Positions 3,163 through 57,470 of a stretch of 64,000 nucleotides of DNA are shown in pieces. Source of the stretch: Escherichia coli (GTDB lineage: Bacteria > Pseudomonadota > Gammaproteobacteria > Enterobacterales > Enterobacteriaceae); assembly GCF_044324785.1 (NCBI RefSeq), contig NZ_CP172127.1; one strand, written 5' to 3'. Position numbers and translations under genes: made by a program. The notes beneath the pieces are model-generated. The model made no database searches. It was given only the letters and a program-made list of their open reading frames with translations, and was not told the origin of the DNA. Numbering within the stretch: position 1 is the stretch's first letter; each line of letters begins with the position of its first letter.

Positions 3163-3933
3163 TCACATTCCCACCTTGTTCATCTCCAGCGGCACCGCCG
3201 AGCGAATCAAATGGTGGCCTTCCAGCTCGATATCGTGGAGATTCTTTTTCACGGTCCGCACATGATCGCGTGCTGCGCGCTGGGCGACGTGCGGCAGCCG
3301 CTGCAACACCGCGTTGTAGATCCGCGCATGCTGGCGATCGATCTGCTTTTTTTGCTGTGGTCGATGGTAGAGATTATTTACGCTGGCAAACACTGAATTA
3401 AACATCAGATCGGTCAATGATTGCAGCGTAAACACCAACACCTGATTGTGAGAAGCCTGACAAATGGCGAGATGGAAAGCGTGATCCAACTGCGCATGTT
3501 CGATCAGCGAAATCTCTTTGTTGTTCTCACTGGCGGCGAGCATTTTTTCATAACAGCGGGTTATCACAACAAAATCAGCCTGGGTTCCCAGCGTTGCCGC
3601 CAGCCTTGCCGATTCACCCTCCAGCAATGCGCGAACGTCGAGCAGATCGTACAGCGTTCGCGGCTGCGTACTGAACAGATGGATCAGCGGGCTGGTGTCC
3701 TGCACCCGATTAAGCCGTGCGACACGAGAATCGCGACCCTGCGCCGTTTCAATAATCCCGCGCCCGCGCAGCACGGTCAGCCCTTCACGCAGTGCGGAGC
3801 GTGAGAAGCCGAGCTTTTCACACAGTCGACGTTCCGAGGGAAGCGGCTGACCGACCTTCAGTACGCCGTCGATAATTAACCGTTCGATACTCTCTGCAAC
3901 CACTTCGCAAATAGGGCGACGTTCATCTTTCAT
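3163..3933 (-). CDS. glcC: GntR/FadR-family transcriptional activator of the glycolate operon
   Basis: Protein from MKDERRPICEVVAESIERL... matches recalled GlcC. The track ORF extends 23 codons upstream; the ATG at 3933 is taken as the start. Divergent from glcD. Confidence 0.9.
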   Translation of the reverse strand: MKDERRPICEVVAESIERLIIDGVLKVGQPLPSERRLCEKLGFSRSALREGLTVLRGRGIIETAQGRDSRVARLNRVQDTSPLIHLFSTQPRTLYDLLDVRALLEGESARLAATLGTQADFVVITRCYEKMLAASENNKEISLIEHAQLDHAFHLAICQASHNQVLVFTLQSLTDLMFNSVFASVNNLYHRPQQKKQIDRQHARIYNAVLQRLPHVAQRAARDHVRTVKKNLHDIELEGHHLIRSAVPLEMNKVGM

Positions 3934-5683: not shown

Positions 5684-6735
5684 TGCTACGCGAGTGTGAT
5701 TACAGCCAGGCACTGTTGGAGCAGGTGAATCAGGCGATTAGCGATAAAACGCCGCTGGTGATTCAGGGCAGCAATAGCAAAGCCTTTTTAGGTCGTCCTG
5801 TCACCGGGCAAACGCTGGATGTGCGTTGTCATCGCGGCATTGTTAATTACGACCCGACCGAGCTGGTGATAACCGCTCGTGCCGGAACGCCGCTGGTGGC
5901 GATTGAAGCGGCGCTGGAGAGCGCCGGGCAAATGCTCCCCTGCGAGCCGCCACATTATGGTGAAGAAGCCACCTGGGGCGGGATGGTCGCCTGCGGGCTG
6001 GCGGGGCCGCGTCGCCCGTGGAGCGGTTCGGTCCGCGATTTTGTCCTCGGCACGCGCATCATTACCGGCACTGGAAAACATCTGCGTTTTGGTGGCGAAG
6101 TGATGAAAAACGTTGCCGGATACGATCTCTCGCGATTAATGGCCGGAAGCTACGGTTGTCTTGGCGTGCTCACTGAAATCTCGATGAAAGTGTTACCGCG
6201 ACCGCGCGCCTCCCTGAGCCTGCGTCGGGAAATCAGCCTGCAAGAAGCCATGAATGAAATCGCCCTGTGGCAACTCCAGCCGCTACCCATTAGTGGCTTA
6301 TGTTACTTCGACAATGCGTTGTGGATCCGCCTTGAGGGCGGCGAAGGATCGGTAAAAGCAGCGCGTGAACTGCTGGGGGGCGAAGAGGTTGCGGGTCAGT
6401 TCTGGCAGCAATTGCGTGAACAACAACTGCCGTTCTTCTCGTTACCAGGTACCTTATGGCGCATTTCCTTACCCAGCGATGCGCCGATGATAGATTTACC
6501 CGGCGAGCAACTGATCGACTGGGGCGGGGCGCTACGCTGGCTGAAATCGACAGCCGATGACAATCAAATCCATCGCATCGCCCGCAACGCGGGCGGTCAT
6601 GCGACCCGCTTTAGTGCCGGAGATGGTGGCTTTGCCCCGCTACCGGCTCCTTTATTCCGCTATCACCAGCAGCTTAAACAGCAGCTCGACCCTTGCGGCG
6701 TGTTTAACCCCGGTCGCATGTACGCGGAACTTTGA
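5683..6735 (+). CDS. glcE: Glycolate oxidase FAD-binding subunit
   Basis: 350-aa ORF; start overlaps the glcD stop (ATGA), typical operon coupling. Confidence 0.9.
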   Translation: MLRECDYSQALLEQVNQAISDKTPLVIQGSNSKAFLGRPVTGQTLDVRCHRGIVNYDPTELVITARAGTPLVAIEAALESAGQMLPCEPPHYGEEATWGGMVACGLAGPRRPWSGSVRDFVLGTRIITGTGKHLRFGGEVMKNVAGYDLSRLMAGSYGCLGVLTEISMKVLPRPRASLSLRREISLQEAMNEIALWQLQPLPISGLCYFDNALWIRLEGGEGSVKAARELLGGEEVAGQFWQQLREQQLPFFSLPGTLWRISLPSDAPMIDLPGEQLIDWGGALRWLKSTADDNQIHRIARNAGGHATRFSAGDGGFAPLPAPLFRYHQQLKQQLDPCGVFNPGRMYAEL

Positions 6736-13093: not shown

Positions 13094-16000
13094 ATGAATA
13101 AGAAATTTAAATATAAGAAATCGCTTTTAGCGGCTATTTTAAGCGCAACCCTGTTAGCCGGTTGTGATGGTGGTGGTTCAGGATCGTCCTCCGATACGCC
13201 GTCTGTAGATTCTGGATCAGGGACTTTGCCGGAAGTGAAACCCGATCCAACACCAACCCCGGAGCCGACACCTGAGCCGACGCCGGACCCAGAACCTACG
13301 CCGGATCCAACACCTGATCCTGAGCCGACACCAGAACCGGAGCCAGAACCTGTTCCTACGAAAACGGGTTATCTGACCCTGGGCGGAAGCCAGCGGGTAA
13401 CTGGTGCTACCTGTAATGGTGAATCCAGCGATGGCTTTACCTTTACGCCAGGCAATACCGTGAGTTGTGTGGTGGGCAGTACGACCATTGCAACATTCAA
13501 CACCCAGTCAGAAGCTGCGCGTAGCCTGCGTGCGGTTGACAAAGTGTCGTTTAGCCTGGAGGACGCGCAGGAGCTGGCGAATTCTGAAAATAAGAAAACC
13601 AACGCCATCTCTCTGGTGACGTCCAGCGACAGTTGCCCCGCAGATGCAGAACAGCTTTGTCTTACTTTCTCGTCAGTGGTTGATCGCGCGCGATTTGAAA
13701 AACTGTATAAGCAAATTGATCTGGCAACAGACAATTTCAGCAAGCTGGTCAATGAAGAGGTGGAAAACAATGCTGCGACTGATAAAGCGCCGTCCACCCA
13801 TACCTCAACGGTAGTGCCAGTCACGACAGAGGGAACAAAACCGGATCTGAACGCGTCCTTCGTGTCGGCTAACGCGGAACAGTTTTATCAGTATCAACCC
13901 ACTGAAATCATTCTTTCCGAAGGCCAACTGGTGGATAGCCTGGGGAACGGTGTTGCTGGCGTTGACTACTACACCAATTCAGGCCGTGGCGTAACTGACG
14001 AAAACGGTAAATTCTCCTTTAGCTGGGGCGAAACCATCTCCTTTGGTATCGATACCTTTGAACTGGGCTCAGTACGTGGCAATAAGTCGACCATTGCGCT
14101 GACTGAATTGGGTGATGAAGTTCGCGGGGCAAATATCGATCAGCTCATTCATCGTTATTCGACGACTGGTCAAAATAATACTCGTGTTGTTCCGGACGAT
14201 GTACGCAAGGTCTTTGCCGAATATCCCAACGTGATCAACGAGATAATCAATCTTTCGTTATCCAACGGTGCGACGCTGGATGAAGGCGATCAAAACGTTG
14301 TGCTGCCTAACGAATTTATCGAGCAGTTTAAGACGGGTCAGGCCAAAGAGATCGATACCGCGATTTGTGCGAAAACCAACGGTTGCAACGAAGCTCGCTG
14401 GTTCTCGCTGACAACGCGCAATGTTAATGACGGCCAGATTCAGGGCGTTATCAACAAGCTGTGGGGCGTGGATACGAACTATCAGTCTGTCAGCAAGTTC
14501 CACGTCTTCCATGACTCTACCAACTTCTATGGCAGCACCGGTAATGCGCGCGGTCAGGCAGTGGTGAATATCTCCAACGCGGCATTCCCGATTCTGATGG
14601 CGCGTAATGATAAAAACTACTGGCTGGCCTTCGGCGAAAAACGCGCCTGGGATAAAAACGAGCTGGCGTACATTACGGAAGCGCCTTCTCTCGTTGAGCC
14701 GGAAAACGTTACGCGCGATACCGCCACCTTTAACCTGCCGTTTATTTCGCTGGGGCAAGTCGGTGAGGGCAAACTGATGGTTATCGGTAACCCGCACTAC
14801 AACAGCATTTTGCGTTGTCCGAACGGTTACAGCTGGGAAGGCGGTGTTGATAAAAACGGTCAGTGTACGCGTAACAGTGATTCTAATGATATGAAGCACT
14901 TTATGCAGAACGTGTTGCGCTATCTGTCCGACGATAAATGGACGCCGGACGCGAAAGCCAGCATGACCGTAGGTACCAACCTGGATACTGTCTATTTCAA
15001 ACGTCATGGTCAGGTTACAGGAAACAGCGCTGAGTTCGGCTTTCATCCGGATTTTGCGGGTATCTCTGTTGAGCATTTAAGTAGCTATGGCGATCTCGAC
15101 CCGCAGGAAATGCCGCTGCTGATCCTCAACGGCTTTGAGTATGTGACTCAGGTTGGTAACGATCCTTATGCAATCCCGCTGCGAGCAGATACCAGCAAAC
15201 CGAAGCTGACTCAGCAGGATGTGACCGATCTGATCGCCTATCTGAACAAAGGTGGATCGGTGCTGATCATGGAAAACGTGATGAGCAATCTTAAGGAAGA
15301 GAGCGCGTCTGGCTTTGTACGTCTGCTTGATGCCGCAGGTCTGTCGATGGCACTGAACAAGTCGGTAGTAAATAACGATCCGCAAGGGTATCCGAACCGC
15401 GTTCGTCAGCAGCGCGCAACGGGCATTTGGGTCTATGAACGTTATCCTGCCGTAGATGGTGCGCTGCCGTACACCATCGATAGTAAGACAGGGGAAGTTA
15501 AGTGGAAATATCAGGTAGAAAACAAACCTGATGACAAACCGAAGCTGGAAGTTGCCAGCTGGCTGGAAGATGTAGATGGCAAACAGGAAACGCGTTATGC
15601 CTTTATTGATGAGGCCGATCATAAAACAGAGGATTCTCTGAAGGCTGCGAAGGCAAAAATCTTTGAGAAGTTTCCTGGATTAAAGGAGTGTAAGGACCCA
15701 ACTTACCACTACGAGGTCAACTGTCTGGAATATCGTCCTGGCACGGGGGTTCCGGTTACTGGTGGCATGTATGTTCCACAGTATACGCAACTAAGCCTTA
15801 ACGCCGACACGGCAAAAGCGATGGTGCAGGCTGCGGATTTAGGCACCAACATTCAGCGTCTGTATCAGCATGAGCTCTACTTCCGGACCAATGGTCGCAA
15901 AGGTGAGCGTCTGAGCAGCGTCGATCTGGAACGTCTGTACCAGAACATGTCGGTCTGGCTGTGGAATAAAATTGAATATCGTTATGAAAACGACAAGGAT

Positions 16001-35874: not shown

Positions 35875-36885
35875 ATGAGTATTTCTTTGAAAAATATTGA
35901 TTTTGCTAAAGGTCCTGTTGATTCCCTCCATCATGATTATTACTTATGGCGAGGGAAGAACATTGAGGATAAAAGACTTTTTCTCGTTTTCTCATCTCGG
36001 GGAGCAGGTCCTGGAGAATTTAGTTTTTTCAAAACTTTTGATGCGCTTAATGTAAATGTTTTGCATGTTACACCCTCTGATTTTTCATGGTACCAAAAAG
36101 GGTTAGTCGGTTTAGGGAGTGATTTGCCTTCTGCATTTAAAGCCCTATCTGACCGAATAGATAATTTCTGTATTTATCATAAAATAAAACAAATTATCTG
36201 TGTAGGGGCTTCCATGGGAGGATATGGTGCTTTAATTTATGGGGCTTTATCTAGTAGAAAAATAAAAACAACACTTATTCTTTTTGGCACCGAAACAATA
36301 TTAAAACTTCCTTATTCTAAAAGTTCTGAGAGTGAATTTGATATTCTCAAAAAATTTAAAGATGTAAGGTTTCTAGATTATTCTGATCTTGATGTGAATA
36401 TGATATTTGGTGAGTTTGATATTGTAGATACTTATTGTGCTTTATCGATGCGACATGATCGAAATTTTTCATTTTTTTCATGCACTAGCGCCTCACATGT
36501 TGTTCCGGAATACTTAAATAGACAAATTGGAATTGTTAATTTTTTTACAGACTTCTTATCGGGTGGAAGATCTTTTATTGGAAGAGGCCACATTGCTTCT
36601 GAGCTTTATCCTGAGGATATTTCTCCTCTTCTGTTCTCGAAACAATTTACTGAGGAATACAATAATGCCCTCCTCTGTTGCTTGAAAAAATATCCTTCAT
36701 TTGGGTTTGCATGGAATAGATTAGGCGTATATTTACACAATATAGGAGATCTGGCTGGGTCTTTAGCAGCATTAAAAAGAGCATTTTTCATCAACCCTGA
36801 TTATCCAAATACAATTGAGCATCTTAACTCGGTAAGAAATAAACTAAAAACTTTTAGTTTTTATGTATACTTGTGTGAGGAATGA
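35875..36885 (+). CDS. Alpha/beta-hydrolase-fold protein of kps region 2, candidate capsule-modifying enzyme (possibly O-acetyltransferase or esterase)
   Basis: ATG 35875 (MSISLKNIDF...) 7 nt after GGTGGG; nucleophile-elbow motif GASMGG near 36201-36221; low GC like the polymerase gene. Confidence 0.5.
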   Translation: MSISLKNIDFAKGPVDSLHHDYYLWRGKNIEDKRLFLVFSSRGAGPGEFSFFKTFDALNVNVLHVTPSDFSWYQKGLVGLGSDLPSAFKALSDRIDNFCIYHKIKQIICVGASMGGYGALIYGALSSRKIKTTLILFGTETILKLPYSKSSESEFDILKKFKDVRFLDYSDLDVNMIFGEFDIVDTYCALSMRHDRNFSFFSCTSASHVVPEYLNRQIGIVNFFTDFLSGGRSFIGRGHIASELYPEDISPLLFSKQFTEEYNNALLCCLKKYPSFGFAWNRLGVYLHNIGDLAGSLAALKRAFFINPDYPNTIEHLNSVRNKLKTFSFYVYLCEE

Positions 36886-36934
36886 ATAGCAATATATCTC
36901 AATATCTAAGAGCTGGTTTTTATATCGTTCATAG

Positions 36935-38143
36935 TTATAATTTTTTTACTTTTATTTGTTTTCTTACTCTATCCCCATAATAAACCCCATTAACCTGCGT
37001 CTTCACCAATAAATACCCCCGAAACTTCTTAAACAGTTTCATATCCGGTTTAAAATCGGCCTGCCAGAACTGGTGCAAATGCCCTTGATACGTCAAGCCT
37101 TTGATGTCGTACAGGGCATTGCCCATCACTTTGAGTGGTTTGTTGTGAATCAGCGCAGATATCCCCGCCGTACTGTTAATTGTCACCACCGCTTTTGCGT
37201 GGCGTAACAATTCCGGCATCGGGAGATCGTGCACATAAATGACTCGTTCCCCTAAGCCATATTCCTTACTCAACCGCTTAATTAATGGTCGATAGAGTCT
37301 GTGACCACGATCCATTGGATGGTGCTTGATCACCAAATAACTTTCTTTCGGTGCTTTACGTGAAAATGAGTACATGACTTCATTAATATAGTCACGCACA
37401 TCGTTATAATTGCTGTGGTTACGAATCTGGCTATCGTTATACACCTGCAAAACGGCAAGATAATAACGCTGATCCAGCTCATTCATTAACCTCGGCAATA
37501 CCTTACGCTGTGTTACCTTGTAAAGTTGCTTGCGCCAGTATGCACGAACCCAGCAACGTGCTTCATACCAGGGGGAAAACGATTTATGGTGGCGGTAGCG
37601 AGGGAACTCATGGCGGTAATGCCAGCCCATCAGGTAATACCACATCGCATGACCTATACGTTTCATCGTTGAAGGTTTTAAGTTCTCAACGTGCGGCGCA
37701 GGCATATCTGGTAACTTACGATAAAAATCCGGATCGCGCGGTAGCGATGAATATGCGTTTACTCCGCCTTCTTCAACGGTTATAAATTGCGGGCGTAAAT
37801 ATCCTTCTTCAAATGCCAGAAAGCGGAGCCCTTTCGACTTTGCCCAGCGTTTTGCTTCTTTATGCAATGGGCGACAGTCACCAAAACAGAGGATGGTATC
37901 AAAGTCATATTGCCGGTGGAGATCCCGTAACCATCCGGGGAACTCTTTCGGCGTTTGGTAGTAGGCCAGGTATTGTCGATGGCGGCAGTAAAAACGATCC
38001 CCACCGTTGAATACAACATTCACAGCGTTACGTCCTAATGACTCTAACCATTCGGCGACGTCATTGAAAAAAGGTCCCATCGGCCCCTGCAATAGCAGAT
38101 ATTTTTTACCGGATAATAAAACGGTTAGTGCATTACCTTGCAT
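36935..38143 (-). CDS. kpsS: Capsule biosynthesis protein KpsS (Kdo transferase for the glycolipid anchor)
   Basis: 402-aa ORF with INSTAGISALIHNKP motif; convergent with region 2, first region 1 gene encountered from the right. Confidence 0.9.
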   Translation of the reverse strand: MQGNALTVLLSGKKYLLLQGPMGPFFNDVAEWLESLGRNAVNVVFNGGDRFYCRHRQYLAYYQTPKEFPGWLRDLHRQYDFDTILCFGDCRPLHKEAKRWAKSKGLRFLAFEEGYLRPQFITVEEGGVNAYSSLPRDPDFYRKLPDMPAPHVENLKPSTMKRIGHAMWYYLMGWHYRHEFPRYRHHKSFSPWYEARCWVRAYWRKQLYKVTQRKVLPRLMNELDQRYYLAVLQVYNDSQIRNHSNYNDVRDYINEVMYSFSRKAPKESYLVIKHHPMDRGHRLYRPLIKRLSKEYGLGERVIYVHDLPMPELLRHAKAVVTINSTAGISALIHNKPLKVMGNALYDIKGLTYQGHLHQFWQADFKPDMKLFKKFRGYLLVKTQVNGVYYGDRVRKQIKVKKL

Positions 38144-50957: not shown

Positions 50958-53804
50958 TCAGAAAGTCACATTCAGCGTGGCCTGACCGTTATAACCTTCA
51001 GCGCTGCTGCCGCTGACACTGTGGGCATAACCGGCCTGAACGCCCAGGGTGATATTTTCCCGGACACGGGCTTCCAGTCCGGCCTGCAGGTCCAGTGACG
51101 TGCCATTCCGGGACGGTGAGAACGTCATGTTACTGCCGGCGGCGGCTGTACCCATGCTCATGTCACCCCGGGAGCTGAAAGTGCGGATAACAGAAGGCTG
51201 TACCCACCAGTTCACCGGCAGTTCACTCACACGGTGTTTTGTACTGTCGCGCAGAGTGTCACGGGATGAGGTGCCTTCGCCAAAGGTCATATCGTTGTGG
51301 CTGCCCAGACGGAAGCCGGCACGCACATGTTGTGTACTGCCATGCCCGAACTTCACATAACCGGCGTTATCCTGGCCGTCATCCAGGGAGAGCCCCTGCC
51401 AGGTGTACTGCAGTTGTGGCTCCAGCATCAGGTTGTCAGTGATACTGAAGGGCAGACCGGTTTCCAGTGAGCCCAGCCAGCCCCAGCCCCGGGCGCGGAA
51501 GTCGTTATTGTCCGATGACGCTTTCATGCTGTGGCGGGTTCCCTGTGCCACAATGTCAGCCCACAGGCCGGAGGACGTGTGTGTCAGATTCAGGTATCCG
51601 CCCAGGCTGCCGGCATCATCCCGGACCGTGCCGGCGCGGGAACCGTCATCATCCTTAACATCAACGGAAGAATGGCCTGCAGCACCATATACCCCTGTCG
51701 TCAGAGACATACCGGCAACCTCTGTTCTGAGCAGGTCACCCTCCAGATGGACGAAGCCATAGCTGCCGCTGCTTTCCGGCGTGGCTCCACGGGCAATACC
51801 GCCGTTGTTATCGTGACCGAGATGACCGCCCTGAATGCTGAGACGGACGCTGTTATTTTCACCGCTTACACCGGTCTGATGGCTGCGGGAGCCTGCCAGA
51901 ATCCGGTCATAGTCCATTGCCTGTGTCAGCATGGAGGCATACAGGGGGACTTCAGCACGATAAGCATTTTCACTGCGCAGGTACCAGTCTTCATCGCTGT
52001 CACGGTTCAGGGTGTAGTTAAAGGCTCCGGCCTGAAGCGGGCGACTCAGGGCAAACGCACCTTCTTCTGTGGTGGCACCATTCTGTGCATCCACAACCCG
52101 GATACCCTGTCCGGAGGTTGCCACCCCGAGGTTACTGTTTCCGACATTTGTAAACGCAAGCCAGGTTTTGCCGGTTGCCTGACCACCATTAATCACCAGC
52201 TGGTCAGAGGTATTGCTGCCATCAAGGCGAACACGCATATTGATGGTGCCACCCTGACCGGTGAGGTTACTGGTTGTCAGTTTATGGAACGTTACCGGGG
52301 CGTTGCCTTTTGCAACAGCACGGCTCAGTACGGCATCCGGTGTTGTCTGATTGTCAAAGTAAATCTCCCCTGCGTTAACAATATCGCCGGTACTGACCAC
52401 ATCACCATTCAGTACCATGCTGGCGCCTTTACTGAGCTGTGTTCTGCCACTCAGACTTCCCCCGGCAGCCAGCATCAGTGTTCCACGATGTCCGACAGTG
52501 GTGTTGCTGGCCTGTCCCCCGGCATTAACCGTAAAGCTGCCGCCATTTTCCAGCAGCAGGTCGCTGGCCTGACCGGATATGCCATCAATACTGAACTTAC
52601 CGCTGGCATTGGTCCCCTCAACAGTGGCACCACTGTCTGCTATCAGGGCACCACCGGATGTCATGGTGACATCTGTTGCCTTACCACCGGCAGACACTGC
52701 CAGGGTACCGCCGTCATCCACCAGTGTTTTCTGCGCTGAATGGCCCTCCAGTACATCCAGGCGACCGCCGGACTCCAGAACAACGCCGTCAGCCTTACCG
52801 TTTTCCACTGTGAAATTGCCCAGACGGTTGCTGCCGGTGACGGTTGCCGCCGTACTGGTGACCAGTGCGCCGCCCTGCGTCAGGGTGACATTCGTGGCTG
52901 TACCACCGGCGTTCACCTGCAGTTTGCCTTTCTGGTTAACGGTGGTGAAATCCGCCAGACCACCTTCCTTGATAATCTGCCAGCCGTCACTGTTAACAAC
53001 AGTGCCAGACGCCGTACCGCCGTTGTGCACATACTGGTACCCCCCATTCAGCGTGGTATCCAGTGCGTGACCATGTACAGTCTGGTCGCCGCCGGCATAA
53101 ACCACAGTGGTATTTGCCGTTCCTTCAGCAGCCACAATCTGACGACCATTTTTATTGATGGTGGTGCGTACGGCATCTCCGTAGACGGTCTGCCCGGTAT
53201 CACCATTTTCCGCATCCGGTCCCCCTTCCGCGCCGGTATTCACAACCGTGTCGGTTGCCACTGCGCCGGATTTGACGGCCTGCCAGCCCTTCTCATTAAT
53301 GACGGTACCCGTTGCAATCCCGCCTTCATGTACCCACTGCTCACCGCCGTTCAGCGTGGTGTTCACTGCCTGCCCCTGAAGGCTCTGTCCGCCTCCGGCA
53401 CTGATAACCGTGTCTGAAACGCTTCCTCCGGCATTCACTCTCTGAAGACCACCACCGGTGACAGTAGTGTTGTTGGCGATACCGCCATTTTGTATCCATT
53501 GCCCGCCGGTATTGACCTCGTTATCCGGCCCATACTCCAGCCCGGTACTGATGGTCATTCCGTTGGTCGTACCGAAGACAATCTGGTTGTCATGATTTTC
53601 CAGTGCTCCGCCGCTCACGGTTTCTCCCGCCTGTACAACCGTGTCAGCAGCCAGTGCCGGGACTGATGTGACAGCAGCAAGAGACAGCGCAACCGCCACA
53701 CCGGCGCGTTTTCCCCGTGAGCGGGCCAGTTCGGAGGCCACCACCAGGGTGCCCGTAATGTGATTCCATACCAGCCTGTAGCTGGTGTTCAGATGTCGTT
53801 TCAT
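50958..53804 (-). CDS. flu: Antigen 43 self-associating autotransporter adhesin
   Basis: Start at ATG 53804 ([52 protein letters not shown] extended autotransporter signal peptide); repetitive beta-helix passenger; C-terminal beta-barrel ending in F. Confidence 0.9.
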
Positions 53805-54021
53805 CAGCTTTTCCTTACAGAGGGTGAATAAAAAAGCCGGTACCCACAAATGTGGATACCGGCAGGTACAAAACAGCATGGTCAGATAAAGTGTTTTTTC
53901 CCGGACATAAATGCTTCCCCTCTCTCATCCGCCAGAGAAGTATCAGTCCGTTGTGTGCAATTCCGTTCTGCATGATGAAGAGATTCAGCTGCCTTTTCGC
54001 AGGCCATTAACCACTATAAAT

Positions 54022-54057
54022 GATCGATTGTGACGATCGATACCTGTTTTATCGATC
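54022..54057. promoter_or_regulatory. Dam-methylation/OxyR phase-variation switch of agn43 (three GATC sites)
   Basis: GATC at 54022-54025, 54035-54038 and 54054-54057 inside tgatcgattgtgacgatcgatacctgttttatcgatcg, about 220-250 bp upstream of the flu start codon. Confidence 0.6.
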
Positions 54058-54176
54058 GTTTTATTCTATTAATAACAAGGCAGCCACGCAAGAGAAACAG
54101 GAGGAGTATGAGGGGTTTGTGTCATGTTTTCAGTTGGTTAACGCAATGTAATCAGGCATTTCCTCTGGCAGAGTGT

Positions 54177-55049
54177 TCAGAAGAAAATCCAGTTCCATAC
54201 CGCGCGGGCAACAGAGACCACGGTGTCACGGACGGCACGCAGAACCGTACGAGCCACAGAGGCAACACAGACGCTCTCCGCCGTGTCAAATATCCGGTCC
54301 ACCGCACCGGTAAACTGTTCACGGGCCTGCCCCCGGACAGATTCCGTGCACAGCTCGTCCTGCAGGCGGGTCATCAGGGGACTGGCGGCATGGTCGGGAA
54401 GTGCTGTCATGAGCGCACTGACCAGCGTATCCAGTTCCCAGCCGGTGCGGGCCGATACGGCCACAACCGGATGTACGGGCCGGAACAGCCGGAATACCGC
54501 ATCTGTTTTCTCACGAATGTTCTGTTCCTGTGCGGGAGAAGGCTGAATACCTGCCATATCCCATTCATGGCAGGGCTCCGTTTTGTCGGCCTGCGTCACC
54601 ACAAACAGCACCTGCTGATGTCCCCGGTGCAGGATGTGTCGCCAGAAATAGTCATCCACAGACAGGGCCCGGTCATCGGCTTTAATCAGCCACAGTACCA
54701 GGTCAAGTTCAGGCAGAATGTCACGGTACAGGGCTTCATACTCTGCATCCCTGTCCCGGCTCTCGCCCACCCCGGGCAGGTCAGTGATAACCATGCTGTG
54801 ACCATGGCCACTCAGACGGAAGCGCTGCACTTCCCGGGTGCCGGCGTGAACATCACTGACCGGGGTGACCTCCCCCTGAAACAGTGCATTACAGAGTGAG
54901 GATTTACCGGCCCCGCTTTTTCCCATAATGCCAATCACGGGTTCGTGGCTGGTGAGTTTGCGCAGATGTTCCAGGATGTGACGGGAAAGTGAGTAAGGCA
55001 GGGAGGAGAGCGGTTTTTCAATTGCCTCAATGGCATCAGACGGATTCAT
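54177..55049 (-). CDS. YeeP/YfjP-family GTPase (50S ribosome-binding GTPase domain)
   Basis: Start at ATG 55049 (MNPSDAIEAIEKPLSSLPYSLS...); P-loop GIMGKSGAGKSS; located upstream of flu as in CP4-44. Confidence 0.75.
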   Translation of the reverse strand: MNPSDAIEAIEKPLSSLPYSLSRHILEHLRKLTSHEPVIGIMGKSGAGKSSLCNALFQGEVTPVSDVHAGTREVQRFRLSGHGHSMVITDLPGVGESRDRDAEYEALYRDILPELDLVLWLIKADDRALSVDDYFWRHILHRGHQQVLFVVTQADKTEPCHEWDMAGIQPSPAQEQNIREKTDAVFRLFRPVHPVVAVSARTGWELDTLVSALMTALPDHAASPLMTRLQDELCTESVRGQAREQFTGAVDRIFDTAESVCVASVARTVLRAVRDTVVSVARAVWNWIFF

Positions 55050-55278
55050 ACATGTATTCCCGGTGAAAAAAGACAAAACCCCGCGCACCGGAAAGGTGGC
55101 GGGGGGATTCACGGAGATAATATCTGCCTGAAATTATTTGGAATGCAGGTATATGTGGCTGATTTGTATCAGCTAATGAGTACAGGTCTGAATCTAATCT
55201 GACAGTCCGCTCTGTGCCAGGAGCGGACATTGTTTTCCAACTATTACCTAAGCCTGCGAACCATCTCATCTTCACCCC

Positions 55279-56166
55279 TTAAATTCTCAATGTATCGATA
55301 ACCGCTCGTAGGGCGGGTGACACATTGCGGTGCGGATAATAGATATATGAACCCTCCAGGCGTTGGCTGTAGCATTGCAAAACTCTGATTAGCGCCCCCT
55401 GTTCTATATCATCAGACACTAATTCCTCCGGAACATAAGCCAGCCCCAGACCTAGCCTTGCGGCTTTGGCTTCCATATAACTGTCAGCAAAGGCCCATTG
55501 TCCCTGAGGCTGATGGGTGATCTTTTTACCGTCCTGATTGAGTTCCCAGGCATACAGACTGCCGTCGCCGAACTGGTAAGCGATGCAGGGATGACCTACT
55601 AAATCGGTGGGGGTTTGTGGAAATCCGTAGCGCTGAAAGTGCCCGGGCGTGCCGACAACAGCCATCTCCATATCGGGCGAAATGCGCACCGCAACCATAC
55701 CGCTATCCACTTCCGAGCCCAGACGTATACCGGCATCGAAGCGCTCAGTAATAATATCGACAAACCGGCTTTCGCTGATGAGCTCCAGCCGAATATCCGG
55801 GTATCGTTGTTTAAACACCGCCAGCTTCGGCAGCAGCACTTTATCAATGGCGTGCTGGCTCGCATTAATTCGGACCGTACCCGATGGTGTATGGCGATAA
55901 TGGGCCAGCGTGGCAAGCCCCATATCTAAGGCGTCAAATCCAGATTCGACGTTTCGATAGAGTAACTCGCCGGCATGGGTGAGCGATAACTTGCGCGTGG
56001 TGCGTACCAGAAGCTGCACGCCCAGTCGCTCTTCCAGCTCGCGCACTGCACGGCTAATTCCTGACTGCGCCAGGCCAAGCCTCTGCGCGGCGGCGGTAAA
56101 ACTCCCTTCTCGCACGACCTGCATAAACAGATAGAGATCGTTATAGTTTTCCCGTTTCGCCATCAT
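55279..56166 (-). CDS. LysR-family transcriptional regulator
   Basis: 295 aa with N-terminal HTH (FTAAAQRLGLAQSGISRAVRELEERLGVQLL) and LysR substrate-binding domain; divergent from the hydrolase gene. Confidence 0.8.
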   Translation of the reverse strand: MMAKRENYNDLYLFMQVVREGSFTAAAQRLGLAQSGISRAVRELEERLGVQLLVRTTRKLSLTHAGELLYRNVESGFDALDMGLATLAHYRHTPSGTVRINASQHAIDKVLLPKLAVFKQRYPDIRLELISESRFVDIITERFDAGIRLGSEVDSGMVAVRISPDMEMAVVGTPGHFQRYGFPQTPTDLVGHPCIAYQFGDGSLYAWELNQDGKKITHQPQGQWAFADSYMEAKAARLGLGLAYVPEELVSDDIEQGALIRVLQCYSQRLEGSYIYYPHRNVSPALRAVIDTLRI

Positions 56167-56333: not shown

Positions 56334-57470
56334 ATGACTGCTTTCACCCAAAAATTGACAGCCGCGATATCCACCATGCTGTTATGCGTATCATTAAGTG
56401 GAGTCACAAATATGAGTTACGCTGATACAACCAATCCGAACGCGCCCGTTTCGCAGGTCGAGAAATGGGATAAAACTTTTGCTGAGAGCACGAAAGTTGA
56501 TCACCGTAAGGTGACCTTTCCGAACCGGTACGGGATCACCTTAGTCGGGGATCTCTATATACCGAAGGATCGTGGCGATCGCAAGATGGCAGCAATTGCT
56601 GTTAGTGGCCCCTTCGGGGCGGTGAAAGAGCAATCCAGTGGCCTGTATGCGCAGACGCTGGCTGAACGGGGGTTTGTCACTCTGGCTTTTGACCCTTCAT
56701 ACACGGGGGAAAGCGGCGGCTACCCGCGAAACGTCGCATCTCCGGATATCAACACCGAGGATTTCAGCGCGGCGGTTGATTTCTTAGGCCTGCAAAAAGA
56801 GGTGGATCGCAACCGTATCGGGTTGCTCGGCATCTGCGGATGGGGTGGCATGGCCTTAAACGACGCCGCGATGGACACACGTGTCAAGGCGGTGGCGAGC
56901 AGCGTGATGTATGACATGAGCCGTGCAATGGGGCATGGCGTGGGCGATGGCAAAGACCGCTATACCACTGCCGATCGTCGTGCCGTATTGCAGTATTTGA
57001 ACATGCAGCGCTGGAAGGATGCTGAAAATGGCGCTTTCGCGCCAGGCGGGCATGATATTTACGTTGATGAGAAGGGCAACGTCACCGCTTCCGATCGTAT
57101 TTTACCGGAAACTTTGCCAGCGAATTCTAATCCGGTATTGAAAGAGTTCTTTGATTATTACCGCATGCCGCGTGGTTTCCATGCGCGTTCGGTCAACTCA
57201 ACCAGTGCCTGGAATGCAACCATGCCGCTGTCATTTATGAATATGCCGCTGCTGAGTTACGCTAATGAAGTTACTATCCCTACACTCATCGTGACCGGTG
57301 AAAAAGCCCATTCACGCTATTTTGCTGAAGATGCCTTTAAGGCAATCGGCAGCAAAGAGAAAGAGTTAGTGATTGTCCCCGAGGCAAACCATGTTGATCT
57401 GTACGACAACGTTGCGGGTAAGATCCCATTTGCCAAATTTGAGCAATTTTTCAAGGCAAACTTAAGATAA
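56334..57470 (+). CDS. Secreted alpha/beta-hydrolase-fold protein
   Basis: ATG 56334 with GAGGGGG Shine-Dalgarno; predicted signal peptide (MTAFTQKLTAAISTMLLCVSLSGVTNMSYA); GICGWGG nucleophile-elbow-like motif. Confidence 0.55.
   Translation: MTAFTQKLTAAISTMLLCVSLSGVTNMSYADTTNPNAPVSQVEKWDKTFAESTKVDHRKVTFPNRYGITLVGDLYIPKDRGDRKMAAIAVSGPFGAVKEQSSGLYAQTLAERGFVTLAFDPSYTGESGGYPRNVASPDINTEDFSAAVDFLGLQKEVDRNRIGLLGICGWGGMALNDAAMDTRVKAVASSVMYDMSRAMGHGVGDGKDRYTTADRRAVLQYLNMQRWKDAENGAFAPGGHDIYVDEKGNVTASDRILPETLPANSNPVLKEFFDYYRMPRGFHARSVNSTSAWNATMPLSFMNMPLLSYANEVTIPTLIVTGEKAHSRYFAEDAFKAIGSKEKELVIVPEANHVDLYDNVAGKIPFAKFEQFFKANLR

What the first reader, a model, noticed from the sequence alone, without database searches (positions are those of the whole stretch)
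53880..54176. Antigen 43 with a three-GATC Dam/OxyR phase-variation switch
Three GATC sites within 36 bp (54022-54057) lie in the leader region upstream of the flu start, matching the known epigenetic ON/OFF switch of agn43. This island-borne copy is therefore likely to be phase-variable.
Basis: partly seen in the sequence, partly recalled or inferred. Interest (0 to 1): 0.4.

Follow-up and report, generated by a model that had tools for sequence, protein, structure and literature searches.

The report
Antigen 43 Dam/OxyR phase switch
The three closely spaced GATC sites are real and sit at the start of the transcribed leader of an intact antigen 43 adhesin gene, in the same register as the well-studied E. 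coli K-12 on/off methylation switch, so this is a correct but ordinary observation.

Summary
Confirmed and already known. GATC occurs at 54022-25, 54035-38 and 54054-57. The gene they control is on the minus strand: an intact 948-aa Ag43/Cah autotransporter (53804..50958).

Read on the minus strand, the region has a sigma-70 promoter (TTGCGT, 17 nt, TAGAAT). GATC-I lies where the K-12 isrC/agn43 transcript begins. GATC-II and GATC-III follow at +19 and +32 nt, the same spacing as in K-12.

An OxyR-consensus operator (ATAGAATAAAACGAT-n17-ATCGTCACAATCGAT, 15 of 20 positions) covers the -10 hexamer, the start site and all three GATCs. A 253-nt leader follows. It matches Rfam IS102/IsrC above the gathering score and ends in an intrinsic terminator just before the ribosome-binding site.

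Clustering alone is weak evidence, because four other triple-GATC clusters in the window are all inside genes. Register and conservation are the strong evidence. In 117 homologous metagenome loci, 114 keep all three GATCs in place while the neighbouring columns vary.

This regulatory allele is in about 64-74% of 5,426 complete E. coli genomes. Actual phase variation in this strain is inferred, not shown.

Side lead: a homologous switch precedes a dynamin-RdcB-patatin operon in other E. coli islands.

The parts
54086..54091 (-). -35 hexamer TTGCGT (3 of 6 to consensus); the TTG is invariant across alleles
   Evidence: Sequence. 17-nt spacer to the -10. The TTG is invariant in 63 distinct alleles. 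K-12 has TTGTCC at the same place.
54063..54068 (-). -10 hexamer TAGAAT
   Evidence: Identical in K-12 and in all fetched agn43/cah alleles. The generic promoter scan missed this promoter because it scores only 8 of 12.
54057..54057 (-). Predicted transcription start: the G of the promoter-proximal GATC
   Evidence: By homology. The annotated 5' end of K-12 isrC (L001 1818) is the G of GATC-I. The Rfam IS102 model starts 2 nt upstream of it in both K-12 and the window. Not measured in this strain.
54054..54057 (.). GATC-I (Dam target), about +1..+4
54035..54038 (.). GATC-II (Dam target), about +20..+23
   Evidence: Conserved in register: column entropy near 0 across 63 distinct alleles.
54022..54025 (.). 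GATC-III (Dam target), about +33..+36
54023..54069 (.). Predicted OxyR operator: half-site A ATAGAATAAAACGAT (54069..54055, 8/10), a 17-nt spacer, then half-site B ATCGTCACAATCGAT (54037..54023, 7/10)
   Evidence: Best match in the region and joint best in the window to ATAGnTnnnAnCTAT x2 (15/20; K-12 scores 16/20 in the same register). Only 3 distinct sites in the 64 kb reach 15, and the other two are AT-rich with no GATC. Binding itself was not tested.
53805..54057 (-). 253-nt 5' leader, homologous to IsrC/IS102 RNA
   Evidence: Rfam RF00124 hit at 54059..53823, 64.8 bits against a gathering score of 46, covering model positions 1-206. K-12 isrC scores 252.6 bits. The 5' and 3' ends are conserved and the middle has diverged.
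53830..53863 (-). Intrinsic terminator in the leader: 12-bp stem GCCGGTATCCAC/GTGGGTACCGGC followed by TTTTTT
   Evidence: Terminator scan. Present in the MFE and centroid folds. Same hairpin in K-12. Present in 100 of 115 metagenome leaders.
53812..53816 (-). Shine-Dalgarno AAGGA
   Evidence: Sequence; identical in all alleles aligned.
50958..53804 (-). flu/agn43 coding sequence, 948 aa, short Ag43/Cah class
   Evidence: NF033177 equivalog, 1984 bits against a cut-off of 1200, covering 1-948/948. 71% identical to K-12 Flu. Closest solved passenger domains are 7KO9 and 7KOH.
54177..55049 (-). Upstream YeeP-like GTPase gene, whose 3' flank carries the switch
   Evidence: RefSeq 'GTPase family protein' in near-identical strains. 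Weak Era/MnmE-type GTPase matches.

Best explanation
This is the regulatory region of an island-borne antigen 43 gene and works as the known Dam/OxyR epigenetic on/off switch.

A sigma-70 promoter (TTGCGT-17-TAGAAT) reads on the minus strand and starts transcription at or next to the G of the first GATC (54057). When the three GATCs are unmethylated, an OxyR tetramer binds an operator at 54069..54023. That operator overlaps the -10 hexamer, the start site and all three GATCs, so OxyR blocks RNA polymerase and shields the GATCs from Dam: the heritable OFF state. If Dam methylates the sites first, in the window after replication, OxyR cannot bind and the promoter fires: the heritable ON state.

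A second layer follows. The 253-nt IsrC-like leader ends in an intrinsic terminator 26 nt before the start codon, so only read-through transcripts reach flu.

Shown here: the sequence anatomy, homology to K-12, conservation of the GATC register, and the consensus match. Inferred: OxyR binding, differential methylation and colony-level switching in this strain.
For: The three GATCs have 19/13-nt spacing, the same as K-12, next to an identical -10 hexamer.

The annotated 5' end of K-12 isrC is the G of GATC-I. Rfam IS102/IsrC scores above gathering in the window (64.8 bits) and in K-12 (252.6 bits).

The OxyR-consensus match of 15/20 at 54069..54023 is the top hit in the region and the only site in the window reaching 15 that contains GATC. 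K-12 scores 16/20 in the same register.

In 117 homologous metagenome loci (63 distinct sequences, at least three allele families), 114 keep all three GATCs in register. Column entropy is 0.044 bits at GATC-II/III against 0.672 bits elsewhere, and only 0.7% of random pairs of 4-mers are as conserved. Within half-site B, variation concentrates at two of the three unspecified central positions of the consensus.

Negative control: none of 119 other, apparently chance matches to the promoter/GATC-I anchor in unrelated genomes has this arrangement.

The gene is an intact Ag43 equivalog.

Literature: three GATCs overlap the OxyR site, methylation blocks OxyR, a dam mutant is locked OFF and Dam overproduction locks ON (PMC2909390; PMC13337833; PMC4872104). 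Both agn43 allelic groups have three similarly spaced GATCs (PMC2808357). agn43 rises 121-fold in EC958 oxyR, and its start site lies 228 bp upstream of the ATG (PMC4807369). That distance equals the one from the G of GATC-I to the ATG in a third allele family. flu expression depends on antitermination of IsrC (PMC5389530).
Against: There are no methylation, binding or expression data for this strain.

The generic promoter scan found nothing, because the promoter scores only 8 of 12.

The K-12 central half-site ACGATCAATATCTAT (6/10) is degenerate here (ACGATCGATAAAACA, 2/10, by my own count on the sequence). The 7-nt-spaced OxyR register that K-12 also offers (14/20) is therefore largely absent in this allele family.

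This copy also carries a rare T-to-C change at a consensus-specified position of half-site B (GTCACAAT instead of GTTACTAT; 2 of 63 distinct alleles have C there). That could weaken OxyR binding and bias the switch.

I could not confirm which allele EC958 carries, so the 228-nt agreement is only suggestive.

The K-12 footprint (-16 to +42) and the start site at the G of GATC-I are recalled from Wallecha et al. 2002, which the library does not hold.
Confidence: 0.85

Rival explanations
1. The switch architecture is present, but this allele is biased or locked. Loss of the K-12 central half-site, plus the rare T-to-C change in half-site B, would weaken OxyR binding. Dam would then usually win and the gene would be mostly ON, apart from attenuation by the leader terminator, rather than truly bistable.
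For: The central half-site scores 2/10 here against 6/10 in K-12 (my count on the sequence; K-12 score). C at consensus position 6 of half-site B occurs in only 2 of 63 distinct alleles, and A at position 9 in none. Only 13 of 3478 records carry a 121-bp core at least 99% identical to this one.
Against: The 17-nt-spaced register still scores 15/20 against 16/20 in K-12. The allele family that lacks the central half-site is the most common one and still conserves all three GATCs, which argues that the family is under selection as a switch. The nearest strains share the same variant, so it is not a recent lesion.
Confidence: 0.1
2. The GATC-containing palindromes are conserved because they form hairpins in the IsrC-like RNA, or in the DNA, that serve the leader or an sRNA. 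On this view Dam and OxyR are not involved, and the GATCs are a by-product of CGATCG-type stems.
For: The first 23 nt of the predicted leader fold into an 8-bp hairpin made from the GATC-I and GATC-II arms. In K-12 the hairpin instead uses GATC-II and GATC-III (Rfam structure). The scan reports these palindromes as stem-loops.
Against: The pairing partners differ between allele families while the GATC positions do not, which is the opposite of what RNA-structure selection predicts. The conserved flanks match OxyR half-site positions. Published genetics assign the function to Dam and OxyR.
Confidence: 0.03
3. A Pap-type Dam/Lrp switch, or a chance cluster with no regulatory role.
For: Triple-GATC clusters are not rare in the window: five were found, and 67% of shuffles have at least one.
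Against: No GATC pair with about 102-bp spacing lies within 600 bp, and no papI/papB-like gene is adjacent. This cluster is the only intergenic one, is homologous to the K-12 switch, and sits in an 8.8-kb stretch that otherwise holds a single GATC.
Confidence: 0.02

Closest known systems
E. coli K-12 agn43 (flu) Dam/OxyR phase-variation switch with its isrC leader (CP4-44 prophage)
   Same: Same gene order (YeeP-like GTPase, switch, Ag43). Identical TAATAGAATAAAACGATC core. Three GATCs with 19/13-nt spacing. OxyR half-sites in the same 17-nt-spaced register. Same leader terminator and ribosome-binding site.
   Different: The -35 is TTGCGT rather than TTGTCC. The sequence between GATC-I and GATC-II is unrelated (AAAACAGGT against ATCTATTTT), which removes the K-12 central half-site. 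The leader is 253 nt rather than 222 nt, with a diverged middle. The 5' hairpin uses GATC-I/II rather than II/III. The protein is the 948-aa short class, 71% identical to K-12 Flu.
cah / agn43 alleles of O157:H7, O26, ETEC and UPEC islands (allele family A)
   Same: The 121-bp core is 89-95% identical and the 372-bp intergenic region 89-98% identical. Same leader length (252-254 nt) and same GATC register.
   Different: This copy has the rarer GTCACAAT sequence between GATC-II and GATC-III instead of GTTACTAT, GTTGCTAT or GTTTATAT. It is followed by a DUF905 gene rather than by yeeR-irmA, the arrangement described for UPEC (PMC4807369).
Salmonella gtr and opvAB Dam/OxyR switches
   Same: OxyR half-sites that contain GATCs whose methylation blocks binding, with half-site spacing that fits reduced OxyR (PMC2909390).
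   Different: Those switches have four GATCs in two pairs and alternative activating and repressing OxyR sites upstream of the promoter. Here there is one repressing operator with three GATCs that overlaps the -10 and the start site (compared).

Membership tests
agn43-type Dam/OxyR phase-variation switch | Three GATC sites in a fixed register (19 and 13 nt apart) immediately downstream of the promoter | tested here: met
   54057/54038/54025 on the minus strand. Same spacing as K-12, and kept in 114 of 117 homologous loci.
agn43-type Dam/OxyR phase-variation switch | Sigma-70 promoter that starts transcription at the promoter-proximal GATC | tested here: inconclusive
   The -10 TAGAAT is identical to K-12, and the -35 TTGCGT lies 17 nt upstream. 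The K-12 isrC 5' end is the G of GATC-I. The start site in this strain was not measured, and the generic promoter scan was negative.
agn43-type Dam/OxyR phase-variation switch | An OxyR binding site that overlaps the three GATCs and the promoter | tested here: met
   In silico only. 15 of 20 positions match ATAGnTnnnAnCTAT x2 with a 17-nt spacer at 54069..54023. This is the best match in the region, and K-12 scores 16/20 in the same register. Physical binding cannot be tested with these tools.
agn43-type Dam/OxyR phase-variation switch | Controls an antigen 43 family autotransporter gene | tested here: met
   NF033177 equivalog, 1984 bits against a cut-off of 1200, full length. PDB Ag43 passenger domains match.
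agn43-type Dam/OxyR phase-variation switch | GATCs unmethylated in OFF cells and methylated in ON cells; locked OFF in dam mutants and ON in oxyR mutants | not testable with these tools
   This needs methylation calling and genetics. Published for K-12. OxyR repression of agn43 has been measured in the UPEC strain EC958.
agn43-type Dam/OxyR phase-variation switch | Host encodes Dam and OxyR | not testable with these tools
   Neither gene is in the window. The window is 99.8% identical to E. coli chromosomes. The island's own LysR-type regulator (55279-56166) is YafC-like, not OxyR.
IS102/IsrC RNA (Rfam RF00124) | Covariance-model score at or above the gathering threshold over the full model, ending in the terminator hairpin | tested here: met
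   64.8 bits against 46, model positions 1-206/206, at 54059..53823 on the minus strand. Terminator confirmed. The middle of the RNA aligns poorly.
Pap-type Dam/Lrp switch | Two GATC boxes about 102 bp apart, with Lrp sites and a PapI-like co-regulator | tested here: not met
   No GATC pair 98-106 bp apart lies within 600 bp. No pap-like genes are adjacent.
gtr/opvAB-type Dam/OxyR switch | Four GATCs in two pairs within alternative OxyR half-sites upstream of the promoter | tested here: not met
   There are only three GATCs, all downstream of the -10. Architecture as described in PMC2909390.

The most novel reading that the evidence does not exclude
The roughly 80-bp promoter-operator unit (TTGCGT-17-TAGAAT plus three GATCs inside OxyR half-sites) may not be specific to antigen 43. 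It may be a portable phase-switch cassette attached to the 3' flank of YeeP-family GTPase genes in E. coli islands.

A homologous copy has the same -35 and -10 hexamers and three invariant GATCs spaced 18/13 nt. By my own count on the sequence, it scores 16/20 against the OxyR consensus with 7-nt spacing. It precedes a dynamin-family, RdcB-like and patatin-like phospholipase operon in 1978 of 5426 complete E. coli genomes and in E. albertii.

If it is functional, Dam/OxyR phase variation in E. coli would extend to a candidate membrane-remodelling or phage-defence operon. [quoted passage not shown]
Probability: 0.4. Interest if true: 0.55.

Novelty: already known. Interest (0 to 1): 0.15.

Why it matters
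For this window it matters little. It correctly flags that the island-borne Ag43 adhesin is probably expressed in only a fraction of cells, which is relevant when interpreting aggregation, biofilm or transcriptome data from single colonies (PMC3764049).

The comparative data add three small points. (1) The GATC register and the OxyR half-site positions are what is conserved across at least three divergent allele families. (2) The commonest family lacks the K-12 central half-site, so K-12 is not fully representative of the operator. (3) The same cassette appears in front of an unrelated operon elsewhere, which is a testable lead.

Tried and rejected
Papers not held. I tried to read the primary agn43 papers (Wallecha 2014, PMC4135670; Wallecha 2002, PMC135096; Kaminska 2010, PMC2838033). 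None is in the library. The -16..+42 footprint and the start site at the G of GATC-I therefore rest on my recollection of the 2002 abstract. The start site has independent support from the K-12 isrC annotation.

Promoter scan. The generic scan found no promoter because the agn43 promoter scores only 8 of 12. The 'terminator-like' hits it reported on the plus strand at 54023-54060 are just the GATC palindromes.

Alignment artefact. MAFFT misaligned the K-12 and window switch cores by inserting a 13-nt gap. Ungapped comparison shows identical spacing.

Genome scan. The genome-contig scan used a pattern that was too degenerate (15 specified bases). I reused those matches as a negative control.

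Methylome papers. The two SMRT methylome papers I checked, PMC4490391 and PMC4659465, give no locus-level data for agn43.

EC958. I did not retrieve its regulatory sequence, so I could not confirm that its 228-bp start site falls on GATC-I.

tRNA. ARAGORN found no tRNA in the window or at the tRNA annotated in TUM9803.

Dynamin operon. PADLOC gave only faint hits for it: LeoBC at 8e-5 and a phospholipase effector at 1e-4.

GATC depletion. I considered whether the lack of GATC in flu is specific to that gene. It is not: the whole 8.8-kb island module is depleted.

Full report
OBSERVATION

The gene they precede is on the minus strand. The mechanical ORF runs from 53879 to 50958. The real start is the ATG at 53804. 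From there the product (MKRHLNT..., 948 aa) matches the NCBIfam Ag43/Cah equivalog NF033177 end to end, at 1984 bits against a cut-off of 1200. RefSeq annotates the same coordinates in the 99.8%-identical strain TUM9803.

The intergenic region is therefore 53805-54176. It is bounded upstream by a YeeP-like GTPase gene (55049..54177, minus strand).

IS IT MORE THAN CHANCE?

GATC density in the window is ordinary: 265 sites against 241 +/- 13 expected. Triple clusters within 36 bp occur five times, against 1.13 +/- 1.06 in shuffles, and 67% of shuffles have at least one. The other four clusters lie inside glcC, sslE, kpsF and a hydrolase gene. Clustering by itself proves little.

Three things do exceed chance.

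- The 19/13-nt spacing is unique in the window and absent from 300 shuffles.
- The three sites are the only GATCs between 50637 and 55519. They are three of only four in the 8.8 kb from 46736 to 55519.
- The arrangement is homologous to the K-12 switch, as described next.

ANATOMY (MINUS STRAND)

- Promoter: TTGCGT (54091-54086), a 17-nt spacer, then TAGAAT (54068-54063).
- GATC-I follows five bases after the -10 hexamer (54057-54054). GATC-II is at 54038-54035 and GATC-III at 54025-54022.
- In K-12 MG1655 the same TAATAGAATAAAACGATC core is present. The annotated 5' end of isrC (L001 1818) is the G of GATC-I.
- Rfam IS102/IsrC (RF00124) hits K-12 at 252.6 bits and the window at 54059..53823 at 64.8 bits. 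Both are above the gathering score of 46 and cover the full model.
- The predicted start is therefore 54057. The GATCs occupy about +1..+4, +20..+23 and +33..+36 of a 253-nt leader.
- The leader ends in an intrinsic terminator: a 12-bp stem at 53863-53836 plus T6. The terminator is almost identical in K-12 (one base in the loop differs).
- AAGGA and the ATG follow the terminator.
- The 5' switch and the 3' terminator and ribosome-binding site are conserved. The middle of the leader is not.

OPERATOR

I scored the OxyR consensus half-site ATAGnTnnnAnCTAT. The consensus is from Toledano 1994, recalled from memory. The half-site concept and the wider spacing for reduced OxyR are described in PMC2909390.

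The best site in the region is ATAGAATAAAACGAT-n17-ATCGTCACAATCGAT at 54069..54023, scoring 15 of 20. K-12 scores 16 of 20 in the same register. Only three distinct sites in the 64 kb reach 15. The other two are AT-rich capsule-region sequences with no GATC.

The predicted site overlaps the -10 hexamer, the start site and all three GATCs. It lies inside the -16..+42 OxyR(C199S) footprint that I recall from Wallecha et al. 2002, which is not held.

K-12 also offers a 7-nt-spaced register through a central half-site, ACGATCAATATCTAT (14/20 in total). In this allele family that half-site is degenerate (2/10, by my own count on the sequence).

CONSERVATION

I anchored only on the -10 hexamer and GATC-I and scanned metagenome contigs. 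This returned 120 loci, of which 117 are homologous, comprising 63 distinct 115-nt sequences in at least three allele families.

- All three GATCs are in register in 114 of 117 loci.
- Mean column entropy is 0.044 bits at GATC-II/III against 0.672 bits at the other unanchored columns. Only 0.7% of random 4-mer pairs are as conserved.
- Within half-site B, variation concentrates at two of the three unspecified central positions of the consensus.
- A looser anchor in unrelated genomes gave 119 apparently chance matches, none with this arrangement.

Leader length differs by family: 253 nt (this family), 222 nt (K-12) and 228 nt (a third family). The 228-nt value equals the 5'-RACE start reported for agn43 in EC958 oxyR (PMC4807369). 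I could not check which allele EC958 carries.

DISTRIBUTION AND CONTEXT

The 372-bp intergenic region is found in 4017 of 5426 complete E. coli genomes, and the 121-bp core in 3476. These include cah of O157:H7 and agn43 of O26 and ETEC strains.

The window runs through the glc operon, sslE-gsp, the kps capsule genes and then a genomic island. The island's distal module is GTPase, switch, Ag43, DUF905, DUF932, antirestriction, RadC, CbeA/CbtA, as in CP4-44.

The island's own LysR-type regulator is YafC-like, not OxyR. The switch would therefore depend on the chromosomal oxyR and dam genes.

MECHANISM AND STATUS

The published mechanism is as follows. OxyR represses by binding the unmethylated operator and protects it from Dam. 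Methylation blocks OxyR. Dam and OxyR compete after replication. A dam mutant is locked OFF, and Dam overproduction or loss of oxyR gives ON. The IsrC terminator adds a requirement for antitermination.

This mechanism fits every sequence feature found here. Published work already notes that both agn43 allelic groups carry three similarly spaced GATCs, and that agn43 in a UPEC strain is strongly repressed by OxyR.

The finding is correct and already known. What remains inferred is binding, differential methylation and switching in this particular copy. This copy carries a rare T-to-C change at a consensus position of half-site B, which could shift the ON/OFF bias.

SIDE LEAD

A weak hit from the distant search led to a GTPase-dynamin intergenic region with a homologous cassette:

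- the same TTGCGT-17-TAGAAT promoter;
- three GATCs spaced 18/13 nt, invariant in four E. coli variants and in E. albertii;
- half-sites ATCGATCGTTACTAT-n7-ATCGTTATAAACGAT, 16/20 by my own count on the sequence.

The core is 73% identical to the window's switch, while the flanks are 53-57% identical.

It precedes a dynamin-family (798 aa), YjcZ/RdcB-like and patatin operon. The arrangement is present in 1978 of 5426 genomes.

No held paper links dynamin, OxyR and GATC. [quoted passage not shown] A clonal difference in phase state is an untested alternative explanation for that result.

Noticed in passing
Related loci, not in the window: L005 295-511; L011 7001-11583; L012; L013; L017 about 6390-6600: A homologous promoter and three-GATC cassette lies downstream of a YeeP-like GTPase gene but upstream of a dynamin-family, RdcB/YjcZ-like and patatin phospholipase operon. 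The GATCs are spaced 18/13 nt, and the cassette scores 16/20 against the OxyR consensus by my own count. It is in 1978 of 5426 E. coli genomes and in E. albertii. No held paper links it to Dam or OxyR. PMC12922286 reports that these operons differ strongly between lysogen and non-lysogen clones, which a phase switch could explain.
   Followed up: partly
window 46736-55519: A GATC-poor stretch. This 8.8-kb island module contains only four GATCs, three of which are the switch. The flu coding sequence has none, against 6.7 +/- 2.0 in synonymous-codon shuffles (0 of 1000 shuffles had none). K-12 flu also has none, and 66 of 90 metagenome alleles have none. The depletion covers the whole module, not just flu. 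Whether it helps isolate the switch from Dam or SeqA traffic is unknown.
   Followed up: partly
window 53805-53879: The longest ORF for flu starts at an in-frame ATG at 53879, 25 codons upstream of the real start. That extension runs through the leader terminator and the ribosome-binding site, so an ORF-based boundary misplaces the gene start.
   Followed up: yes
window 54023-54057 compared with K-12 L001 1818-1857: The predicted 5' hairpin of the leader RNA pairs the GATC-I and GATC-II arms in this allele, but the GATC-II and GATC-III arms in K-12. The palindromic arms are conserved while the pairing partner changes. The significance is unknown.
   Followed up: no
window 50654-50887 and downstream: Ag43 is followed here by a DUF905 gene and the DUF932, antirestriction, RadC and CbeA/CbtA module. 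It is not followed by yeeR-irmA, the operon described for UPEC agn43 (PMC4807369). Any phase-variable read-through would therefore reach different cargo.
   Followed up: no
window 3319-3343, 15227-15268, 44532-44567, 56534-56580: These other tight GATC clusters (3-4 sites within 25-47 bp) all fall inside coding sequences: glcC, sslE, kpsF and an alpha/beta hydrolase. None overlaps an OxyR-consensus match of 14 or more of 20 positions.
   Followed up: partly
window 36902-36945 and 36157-36193: OxyR-consensus matches of 14-15 out of 20 lie in the low-GC capsule region. They contain no GATC and are most likely chance matches caused by AT richness.
   Followed up: no
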